A DNA stretch of 63,249 bases, the filler included, from Rhabdomonas costata (lineage: Eukaryota): the NCBI GenBank assembly GCA_019059605.1. It is 48 parts of 48 records of this genome, joined end to end, with 100 filler letters (N's around TTAATTAATTAA, not from the genome) between each part and the next. Parts side by side here need not be neighbours in the genome. Positions count along the whole stretch, not along the records: positions 22,449 to 23,668 come from JAHMHO010023097.1; 47 more parts are not named here. One strand, 5' to 3'. The notes below the pieces were generated by a model. That model made no database searches and was not told the DNA's origin. It saw only the letters and a list, made by a program, of their open reading frames with translations. Shown here piece by piece: positions 21,017 to 23,472 of this stretch (its first letter is position 1; each line of letters begins with the position of its first letter). A program made the translations under genes and the position numbers.

Positions 21017-22451
21017 CACACCCACANNNNNNNNNNNNNNNNNNNNNNNNNNNNNNNNNNNNNNNNNNNNTTAATTAATTAANNNNNNNNNNNNNNNNNN
21101 NNNNNNNNNNNNNNNNNNNNNNNNNNGGTTTTGTTTAATTTCAACTGGTTTTAACTCGTTTTGCGGTGTTTTTTTTACTAGTTCTCTGTTGTTTTGTCTG
21201 GTTTTAGACCGGAATTCCCGGTTTGGGATTCCGGGTTTACGGTAGAGCCCTCCCCCTATGCCCCCCCCTTCCTCCTCCGAGATTTCCCAGCTGCTGGACT
21301 GGAACGATGCGCTCCTTGCGCAACTTGCGAACGAAAGTCAGGACGGGAGCTCTGAAAGGTGTGCCCCTTTGGTACGAGGCAATGTCTTGCGTCTTATTAT
21401 TGATAACCCTGGTGACCATGGGGATTTGTTGACAACTTATGTATATGAAAAAGTCGAGGCTCACGATCAGTAAATCGTGGGTAAAGCACTCTCGTTTTAC
21501 TGTGACATGCATTTGCAAACGGGTGTGGCCGATGGTGCTTTGAATCAAAACCCAAAGGCCAATGACAGCGTTGCTGTACATCAAAGCAAAGCCAAAAACT
21601 CTGATTAGAGATCCCATGATGAGGCCAAGGCTCTTTCATCGATTCGGGGCTTGGGGTAAATTGGGACACTCAGCTGGAAGAAGCCGACGGTTGAAACAAT
21701 CGCCAGGGCGTACCTCCAGCGGAGGGCGCGTGATCAAGGATCTGCGTCTCTGTGACTTTGTTCCCCACCACATGCGGGTGGCAAACAGTTGCTGCTTAAT
21801 AGCAATCTAGAGAGGTAAGGATGGCCATCACGATGCATTCGTCGCACACTGTGCGAAGTCGAAGGTCTTGACGTCCTTTATTATCACAGTTGACCCAGTA
21901 TCTATCCACGGACTAGGAAGGGCCCGCCAAATATTTTTTTGGAAAGGACTCCCCTTTCTCCTGTGTGTCACGTTGCAGTGAAGTTCGCCAGCTATACCGG
22001 AACCTGCTGTTTCTACATGCCCTGGAGCAGTTCCGTAGTGACGGGGATTCCGAAAGTGTCCCAAAGGCCACAAGGCGCCACCCCAGAGCTATTACTCAGG
22101 TGCGTCTTTCTTTTTCTCTTGGCACGTGTTTTGTGTGCAAGAGAAGATTTGCTTATCATTCAGATGACTGCCACCGATTTCTTTTCGGGCAATGTAGTGT
22201 GTGGTCCCTTACACTCCGTTTCCGCATGTGTGTGGGCGCATGAACAGCGCTGTCACTTTTTGGTCGGACCGCATTGATCTAGTCGTCCCGTCCGACCTTT
22301 TTAGCAGGTTTTTGTTGTTCCTGCAGAAACAAAGCCCGACGCCAATGCNNNNNNNNNNNNNNNNNNNNNNNNNNNNNNNNNNNNNNNNNNNNTTAATTAA
22401 TTAANNNNNNNNNNNNNNNNNNNNNNNNNNNNNNNNNNNNNNNNNNNNGGG

Positions 22452-23472
22452 GTGTCGCCTCTGCTGCGGATCCCCCCGGGGGGCCGAGGATGGTACAGCT
22501 TCACTGCGGTTGTCGCAGGCACCTCCTCGTTGTATGAGGGGCTCAGCAGCGCTTGGGGGCGGAGAAGAGGGGCGCCCCGAGAGAATAATGGATGGATGGA
22601 TACTTGGCGTTCACGGAACAAACAAAGCACAATGTCTTCGCAGTCCTCTGCGCTTCTGGGCAGTATTACAGGCTCAGTTGAATTGCGGAAAGCCAGTGCA
22701 GTTTTGCATTGGATTTTGGGCGTTAAGGGCACGGGAACCGGACGGAAGGTGAAAGGCCCGGCCGCATAGCGAATTGGAAGCCGATTATTTATAGAAACAA
22801 AACCCGGGGACACATTTTGGCCTTGCCCTCACAGTTAAATGCAATCGTTTTTCCCTAATTTTTTTGCACGCCTCGGTTCATTGCAACAGTAAGTGACTTC
22901 CAAATTCCTCATTGCGTGCTCGCTGCAGAGGTATTTACGATGAGAGATAAGGAAAGGCACCGATGTCGAAGGCCAAAGGTCGAATTGATAAGTTTGCTGT
23001 CTGGATTTGCTCGGAGCCCCCGGCACCTCCCTGCCCCGAGCGGACACTCCCCAGCGAGTGCTTTGAGCACCTTCGCGCGTACTGTGAGGCCAACGGGCCC
23101 TTTGACGGGGTTCTGGGGTTCTCCCAGGGAGCCATCCTGGCGGCGATGTGGGCAGCCAGGATGTCCACCCTGCCCCCTTACATGCAGCTACGGTGCGGGG
23201 TCTTTGTGGCGGGGTCTCTCCCGCTGGACGTGGTGGAGAGGGAGAGAATAGAGGCGGCTTGCCCGGCACTGGGGGCGGCGTTCCCCACTCTGCACATCTA
23301 TGGAAACGCAGATGAGATTATTGTCCCGGCGAAGAGCGTCGCCCTGTCGGAGGCCTTCGAGGCCTCTGCTCGGGGGGTGGTCACCCACACGGGGGGGCAC
23401 GTGGTGCCCGCAAGTGTGAGAAAAGACATTCAGGCCTTTCTGGAGAAAGTACCTGCGAAGCAAACGGGATGA
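22452..23472 (+). CDS. FSH1/OVCA2-family serine hydrolase, 3' partial gene; exons ~22452-22544 and 23053-23472
   Basis: GRGWY...YEGL | SECFEHLRAYCEANGPFDGVLGFSQGA (nucleophile), PTLHIYGNADEII (Asp) and HTGGHVVP (His). The intron boundary is ambiguous (see findings). Confidence 0.92.

What the first reader, a model, noticed from the sequence alone, without database searches (positions are those of the whole stretch)
22532..23055. Candidate nonconventional (non-GT/AG) intron with base-paired ends in the FSH1 hydrolase gene
Seen: joining exon 1 (...TAT GAG GGG CTC) to exon 2 (AGC GAG TGC TTT) gives YEGLSECFEHLRAYCEANGPFDG and removes 508 nt (22545-23052). The boundary can slide within a CAGC direct repeat, but no placement gives GT..AG; the best is CA..AG. 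The intron ends are complementary: CGCTTGGGG (22550-22558) pairs with CCCCGAGCG (23034-23042) with one G-U, and looser pairing continues inward. Known: the join fits the FSH1 family pattern Y.gl.ec.e.l.......GPFDG, and euglenids and diplonemids have nonconventional or intermediate introns of unknown mechanism, which in euglenids have paired ends. Inference: this is such an intron, although the Euglena CAG/CTG end consensus is only half matched. Caveat: a canonical donor TT|GTATGA at 22532 also joins in frame to the AG at 23053-23054, but it deletes the YEGL motif.
Basis: partly seen in the sequence, partly recalled or inferred. Interest (0 to 1): 0.7.

Follow-up and report, generated by a model that had tools for sequence, protein, structure and literature searches.

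The report
Rhabdomonas-type nonconventional intron in FSH1
A 508-base stretch with base-paired ends and no GT-AG borders interrupts a serine hydrolase gene of a euglenid and is likely one more of the hairpin-ended introns already described in this group, although no RNA data were available to show the splice.

Summary
Removing 508 nt joins two FSH1 exons. This join ranks 1 of 3,299 in-frame joins on a family profile and aligns without a gap to the two closest relatives examined. None of its five placements is GT-AG. The genome carries the Rhabdomonas spliced-leader motif, so it is a euglenid. The best placement is 22546-23053 (GC...CA|G), not CA..AG: it shares the GC start and next-exon G of all seven published Rhabdomonas nonconventional introns, but ends in A where they end in a pyrimidine. 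End pairing (-27.5 kcal/mol) is stronger than in 36 inferred conventional introns of this genome (best -20.1), but is explained by G-rich/C-rich composition. The Euglena CAG/CTG code is not met; by eye the seven published introns fail it too. No RNA run holds the locus, so the canonical GT-AG route from 22532 remains possible (about 8%), as does a nested two-step route (about 5%). Verdict: a new member of a known class. The scan has noted this kind of intron before on other contigs of this genome.

The parts
22449..22545 (+). Upstream FSH1 exon (partial; the contig begins here), carrying the W-Y and Y-x-G-L motifs
   Evidence: Aligns to P0017 and P0019 up to the junction; P0019 matches this stretch in the own-genome search, E 0.075
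22546..23053 (+). Candidate 508-nt nonconventional intron, preferred placement GC...CA|G (slides 22544-23051 to 22548-23055)
   Evidence: one match in G000 by DNA search
22544..22547 (+). CAGC direct repeat, 5' copy
   Evidence: Sequence
23052..23055 (+). CAGC direct repeat, 3' copy
   Evidence: Sequence
22550..22575 (+). G-rich 5' arm; 22550-22558 forms the terminal 9-bp helix and further helices follow
   Evidence: Pair probabilities; duplex energies
23016..23042 (+). C-rich 3' arm; 23034-23042 is the partner in the terminal helix
23043..23053 (+). Unpaired C-rich tail between stem and 3' junction
23054..23472 (+). Last FSH1 exon, open to its stop codon, with the GFSQG motif and the later Asp and His motifs
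   Evidence: Pfam PF03959 E 6.6e-29; alignment
22532..22537 (+). Rival canonical donor TT|GTATGA, in frame with the AG at 23053-23054
   Evidence: five contiguous pairs with the U1 5' end of this genome
22921..22936 (+). Internal 10-nt segment, 9 of 10 complementary to 22542-22551, followed at once by a strong GT donor at 22931 (basis of the nested reading)
   Evidence: I25; 7 of 9 matches to the ideal donor

Best explanation
22546-23053 interrupts an FSH1 serine hydrolase gene without GT-AG borders and is likely a euglenid nonconventional intron of the Rhabdomonas type, which would be removed as one piece to give the YEGLSECF join. Shown: no canonical placement, best protein fit, GC start, G at the start of the next exon, and G-rich/C-rich arms predicted to pair from +5 and -12 inward. 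Inferred from Euglena work: the stem brings the two junctions together, the cut needs neither U1 pairing nor an AG, removal follows that of spliceosomal introns, and the intron leaves as a circle. Inferred origin: an old insertion (MITE-like, or from break repair) that left the 4-nt direct repeat.
For: The join ranks 1 of 3,299 in-frame joins (173.4 bits) on a profile built from 99 of 166 homologues; GT-AG from 22532 ranks 194 (164.3 bits). Counting back from GFSQG without gaps, Y, G and E of the join sit where 59, 57 and 42 of the 99 have them. The two exons abut without a gap against P0017 and P0019. Genomic 14-mers beginning GT, put in place of 22532-22545, score as well in 2 of 5,000 cases, and in 3 of 382 for GTATG starts. 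End duplex -27.5 kcal/mol versus mean -10.6, best -20.1, in 27 inferred conventional introns, and -4.4 to -17.7 in nine more. G000 holds 53 exact copies of the Rhabdomonas spliced-leader motif plus GT, control 0. In PMC8219788 Table S6, 7 of 7 introns start GC and 7 of 7 are followed by G.
Against: No cDNA evidence. All seven published introns end in a pyrimidine; this placement ends in A. The Euglena code is met by none of the five placements. Pairing does not exceed composition shuffles, and 3 of 27 conventional introns have a helix as long. A good CAG acceptor and a usable GTATG donor are in frame. 36 of 37 exon pairs examined read as GT/GC-AG, so the prior for a nonconventional intron is low. 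Yeast FSH1 (1YCD) has a loop five residues shorter at this place.
Confidence: 0.8

Rival explanations
1. An ordinary spliceosomal GT-AG intron of 523 nt (22532-23054); the protein lacks five residues, and the YEGL reading and the stem are chance or relics. It may also be a minor second route beside the nonconventional one.
For: GTATG pairs fully with this genome's U1 5' end. The three inferred donors without G at -1 all begin GTATG. CAG is the commonest acceptor, 21 of 27. Yeast FSH1 has a shorter loop here. Conventional introns dominate, 36 of 37 pairs.
Against: 9 bits lower, rank 194. It deletes a Tyr kept in register by both closest relatives. A chance fit this good arises in 3 of 382 GTATG starts. 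Its end duplex (-26.1) lies outside all 36 controls.
Confidence: 0.08
2. Nested two-step removal: a conventional 124-nt GT-AG intron (22931-23054) is spliced first, then a 384-nt stem-ended nonconventional intron (22546-22929), giving the same mRNA as the best model.
For: Donor GAG|GT at 22931 has 7 of 9 matches to the ideal donor. 22921-22930 is 9 of 10 complementary to 22542-22551, duplex -24 kcal/mol. Conventional introns leave before nonconventional ones in E. gracilis (PMC6221363 abstract).
Against: Found after the fact; a strong donor and a short complement are each fairly likely in 500 nt (my rough estimate, not computed). The exact Euglena register (22544-22930) gives a product one residue short, 165.7 bits, rank 102. 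The full-length end duplex is stronger and dominates the fold.
Confidence: 0.05
3. An unspliced insertion with a 4-nt target duplication that has inactivated this copy of the gene.
For: CAGC direct repeat and imperfect inverted ends; no expression evidence either way.
Against: Both exons are open and keep the family motifs. It is the only FSH1 match in G000. The insert has one match by DNA search, and its first 16 nt match 5 places against 2 for the control, so no active family is seen.
Confidence: 0.04
4. A GC-AG intron of the same length shifted by five bases (22551-23058), giving SSC in place of SEC.
For: Canonical dinucleotides; rank 4, only 2.1 bits lower.
Against: The donor has 3 of 9 matches to the ideal (controls 4-7) and C at -1 (0 of 27); the acceptor GAG occurs in 0 of 27. 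Glu at that position in 42 of 99 homologues, Ser in 3.
Confidence: 0.03

Closest known systems
Putative nonconventional introns of Rhabdomonas costata (PMC8219788, Table S6; seven cases with transcript and read support)
   Same: GC at the 5' end, G starting the next exon, short direct repeat at the junctions, paired arms set back from the cut sites, pyrimidine-rich tail (read by eye).
   Different: Last base is A, not a pyrimidine; the stem starts nearer the 5' end (+5 against about +10 in the first three rows); no transcript support here. No FSH1-type annotation among the 26 genes of Table S5.
Nonconventional introns of Euglena agilis and E. gracilis with the code 5'-N3-CDG...CH'G-N5-6|R (PMC12501133; PMC4770533; PMC11170887)
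   Same: Non-GT-AG borders, paired ends, slidable junction, purine at the start of the next exon.
   Different: No CDG at +4..+6 paired with -8..-6 in any placement; the stem is offset (+5/-12).
Intermediate/nonconventional introns of euglenids (PMC4770533)
   Same: One border can be read as canonical (GC at the 5' end, or AG at the 3' end in the next register) together with a stem.
   Different: That subtype is defined with a stem that follows the Euglena junction model, which this one does not; the paper treats most such cases as ordinary nonconventional introns.
Noncanonical introns of hemistasiid diplonemids (PMC12621601)
   Same: Paired ends; GC-CA is among the commonest end pairs reported.
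   Different: There they are 97% of introns with median lengths of 37-91 nt; here they are a minority, this one is 508 nt, and the host is a euglenid.

Membership tests
Euglenid nonconventional intron (general) | Host is a euglenid | tested here: met
   53 exact copies of the spliced-leader motif published for Rhabdomonas, control 0
Euglenid nonconventional intron (general) | No GT/GC-AG placement for the spliced product | tested here: met
   Five placements of the best join, none canonical; canonical joins give other, lower-scoring proteins
Euglenid nonconventional intron (general) | Stable pairing that brings the ends together | tested here: met
   -27.5 kcal/mol, beyond 36 of 36 controls; not beyond composition shuffles; a prediction only
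Euglenid nonconventional intron (general) | Absent from mature mRNA | not testable with these tools
   No RNA holder listed; no protein with this sequence turned up
Euglenid nonconventional intron (general) | Excised as a circle, without the spliceosome | not testable with these tools
   From the discussion of PMC12501133, for E. gracilis tubA
Euglena code N3-CDG...CH'G-N5-6|R | CDG at +4..+6 paired with CH'G 5-6 nt before the 3' junction | tested here: not met
   11 in-frame placements fit the code, best rank 38; none is a placement of the best join
Euglena code N3-CDG...CH'G-N5-6|R | Purine at the start of the next exon | tested here: met
   3 of 5 placements
Rhabdomonas Table S6 type | GC start and G at the start of the next exon (7 of 7 published) | tested here: met
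   22546-23053 is the top-scoring of 179 such in-frame placements
Rhabdomonas Table S6 type | Pyrimidine as last intron base (7 of 7 published) | tested here: not met
   A at 23053; met only by placements that do not start with GC
U2-type spliceosomal intron (22532-23054) | GT donor pairing with U1 and YAG acceptor in frame | tested here: met
U2-type spliceosomal intron (22532-23054) | Product keeps the family register | tested here: not met
   Five-residue deletion of the Y-x-G motif
Introner or MITE family | Many related copies in the genome | tested here: not met
   One match; 5 against 2 control matches for the 5' end; the search skips common words and the assembly is fragmentary

The most novel reading that the evidence does not exclude
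The 508 nt are a nuclear twintron: a spliceosomal 124-nt intron (22931-23054) is nested at the 3' end of a stem-ended nonconventional intron, and its removal creates the nonconventional 3' junction, so the two euglenid splicing systems act in sequence on one interruption.
Probability: 0.05. Interest if true: 0.6.

Novelty: new member of a known kind. Interest (0 to 1): 0.25.

Why it matters
The class is known, including in Rhabdomonas, so one more unconfirmed example adds little. Its modest value is as a test case. The published Rhabdomonas introns and this one share a GC start, an offset stem and a C-rich tail, and lack the code shown to be required in Euglena. That suggests osmotrophic euglenids use an older or different rule. 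This intron also has a complete in-frame GT-AG route beside it, so one RT-PCR would show whether the two systems compete at one site, which bears on conversion between intron types.

Tried and rejected
RNA evidence: no RNA holder listed. The two runs X1 and X2 (one sample, kind not on record) cover intron and exon alike and show no joint. They may be the source sample, so they are no independent support, and they do not cover the 5' junction. A transcript-derived protein was not found among near-length, longer or representative proteins; shorter proteins were not searched. The metagenome scan gave one match (L025), which lies among bacterial-looking genes and was set aside as spurious. A search with P0017 added one relative, not used. 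No repeat family was found for the intron. In one search the null test failed through a frame error and its two printed null lines are void; it was redone. In one search three of nine acceptor offsets were set two bases short of a CAG, so those three energies are for slightly wrong ends. One of 37 control pairs (L123) stayed unresolved and was dropped. The CA..AG placement was rejected as the preferred one because GC...|G fits all seven published cases. The Euglena-code joins 22544-23039 (rank 275) and 22544-22930 plus 22931-23054 (rank 102) score lower. Neither intron-end motif occurs in the spreadsheet supplement of PMC8219788. Its Tables S2-S4 list introns by contig name without sequence, so whether this intron is among them is open.

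Full report
Setting. The window is a chain of 48 contigs of about 1.2 kb separated by N spacers; the finding lies on the contig at 22449-23668 (L001). The genome G000 holds 53 exact copies of a pattern made of the 3' part of the spliced leader published for Rhabdomonas costata plus GT, against 0 for the reversed control. The host is therefore a Rhabdomonas-type osmotrophic euglenid. The downstream exon is an FSH1 serine hydrolase (PF03959, E 6.6e-29) and is the only match in G000.

Observation. It slides over five placements within a CAGC direct repeat, and none is GT..AG. Folding 22546-23053 alone gives the helix 22550-22558 / 23034-23042 with pair probabilities of 0.70-1.0, followed inward by further helices. 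The 30+30 nt end duplex (-27.5 kcal/mol) is reached by 12 of 3,000 random genomic window pairs, and the best partner of the 5' arm on the contig downstream of 22590 is the intron's 3' end. But 1,253 of 3,000 composition-preserving shuffles do as well, so the pairing comes mostly from a G-rich 5' end facing a C-rich 3' end. The whole intron is not unusually structured (z +2.0).

Which join makes the protein. I built a profile from 99 of 166 homologues (those with a G[FYH]SQG motif at least 60 residues from the start; the closest hit, P0017, was thereby left out) and scored all 3,299 stop-free in-frame joins with donors in 22480-22599 and acceptors in 22960-23109. The GC-AG join of the same length (22551-23058) ranks 4 (171.3) and the GT-AG join from 22532 ranks 194 (164.3). 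Counting back from GFSQG without gaps, Tyr, Gly and Glu of the join fall where 59, 57 and 42 of the 99 have them. Against P0017 and P0019, two of the three best hits, the exons abut without a gap, with 12 residues between WY and the Tyr in all three. If 22532-22545 were intron, an equally good fit would arise in 2 of 5,000 genomic GT-start 14-mers, or 3 of 382 GTATG-start ones. Against this, yeast FSH1 (1YCD) has a loop five residues shorter in this region, so a deletion there is structurally possible.

Same-genome control. From family searches I took 37 adjacent exon pairs. These introns are inferred from protein continuity, not from RNA. 27 were placed as GT/GC-AG directly, nine more by eye (three with offsets two bases short of a CAG), and one stayed unresolved. 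End duplexes averaged -10.6 (sd 4.4, best -20.1) in the 27 and ran from -4.4 to -17.7 in the nine, so none of 36 reaches the candidate. Helix length alone does not separate them: 3 of 27 have 9 bp or more. Donors have G at -1 in 26 of 27, and acceptors are CAG, TAG or AAG in 27 of 27, which makes the GC-AG rival (C at -1, GAG acceptor) very weak. The GT-AG rival is not excluded. The U1 5' end of this genome reads ACAUACCUG and pairs with GTATG, and the three donors lacking G at -1 all begin GTATG.

Comparison with what is known. PMC8219788 (passages, section 7, and the spreadsheet supplement: part 85 and two searches; figures, one oversized PDF and five other PDFs not seen) reports 1,164 predicted, 105 read-supported and seven curated nonconventional introns in R. 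costata. In its Table S6, read by eye, 7 of 7 start GC, 7 of 7 are followed by G (4 by GC), 7 of 7 end in a pyrimidine, the stems stand back from the junctions, and none has the full Euglena motif. Placement 22546-23053 matches all of this except the last base (A), and it is the top-scoring of 179 in-frame GC...|G placements. The Euglena code N3-CDG...CH'G-N5-6|R, shown by knock-in to be required (PMC12501133, parts 1-4 of 6), is met by 11 in-frame placements, best rank 38, none belonging to the best join. PMC4770533 (abstract and passages) treats introns with one canonical-looking border as mostly ordinary nonconventional ones and links direct repeats to break repair. PMC6221363 (abstract) shows conventional introns leave first. 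PMC12621601 (abstract and section 5) lists GC-CA among common diplonemid ends. PMC11170887 (part 1 of 4) gives a mean length of about 520-540 nt for E. gracilis nonconventional introns. Three literature searches listed no title on an FSH1 intron. No FSH1-type annotation is among the 26 genes of Table S5; Tables S2-S4 give contig names only, so prior listing there is open.

Mechanism. Shown: borders, frame, protein fit and predicted pairing. Inferred from Euglena: the stem brings the junctions together, neither U1 pairing nor an AG is needed, and the intron is released as a circle after spliceosomal introns are gone. The trans-acting machinery is unknown. An origin as an insertion is suggested by the 4-nt repeat, but no related copies were found.

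A nested alternative. Inside the intron, 22921-22930 is 9 of 10 complementary to 22542-22551 and is followed at once by a strong donor at 22931 (7 of 9 matches). Splicing 22931-23054 as an ordinary 124-nt intron and then 22546-22929 (384 nt, duplex -24.2) gives the same mRNA. I found this after the fact and rate it about 5%.

Limits and verdict. No RNA holder was listed; runs X1 and X2 show no joint and cover only the 3' junction. Earlier notes of this scan report similar introns on other contigs of this genome (161 notes fit the look-up, 8 shown); none lies near this one, and I did not test them. Verdict: likely (0.8) a nonconventional intron of the Rhabdomonas type, a new member of a known kind, interest 0.25.

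Noticed in passing
window:22921-22936: A segment that fits the Euglena CAG/CTG code exactly with the 5' end (22544-22930) and is followed at once by a strong GT donor; 22931-23054 would be a clean 124-nt GT-AG intron.
   Followed up: partly
window:22540-22555 with 23055-23070: With flanks included, the 5' junction region is predicted to pair with the start of exon 2 (about 14 bp), an alternative to the terminal intron helix.
   Followed up: no
L027:930-1096 (G000:C18689; also C443, C50243): U1 snRNA genes whose 5' end reads ACAUACCUG, so the ideal donor is CAG|GUAUGU; the three inferred donors lacking G at -1 all begin GTATG.
   Followed up: partly
window:22798-22973: Runs X1 and X2 show six substitutions and a 7-nt insertion in the intron middle against one substitution in the exon 2 coding part; single contigs at depth under 5, so errors are possible.
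   Followed up: no
PMC8219788 Table S6: All seven published Rhabdomonas nonconventional introns share GC...Y|G and, by eye, none obeys the Euglena code, which hints at a lineage-specific rule.
   Followed up: partly
L123 (G000:C8837:1257-1587): One kinesin exon pair could not be resolved as GT/GC-AG (low-complexity flanks).
   Followed up: no
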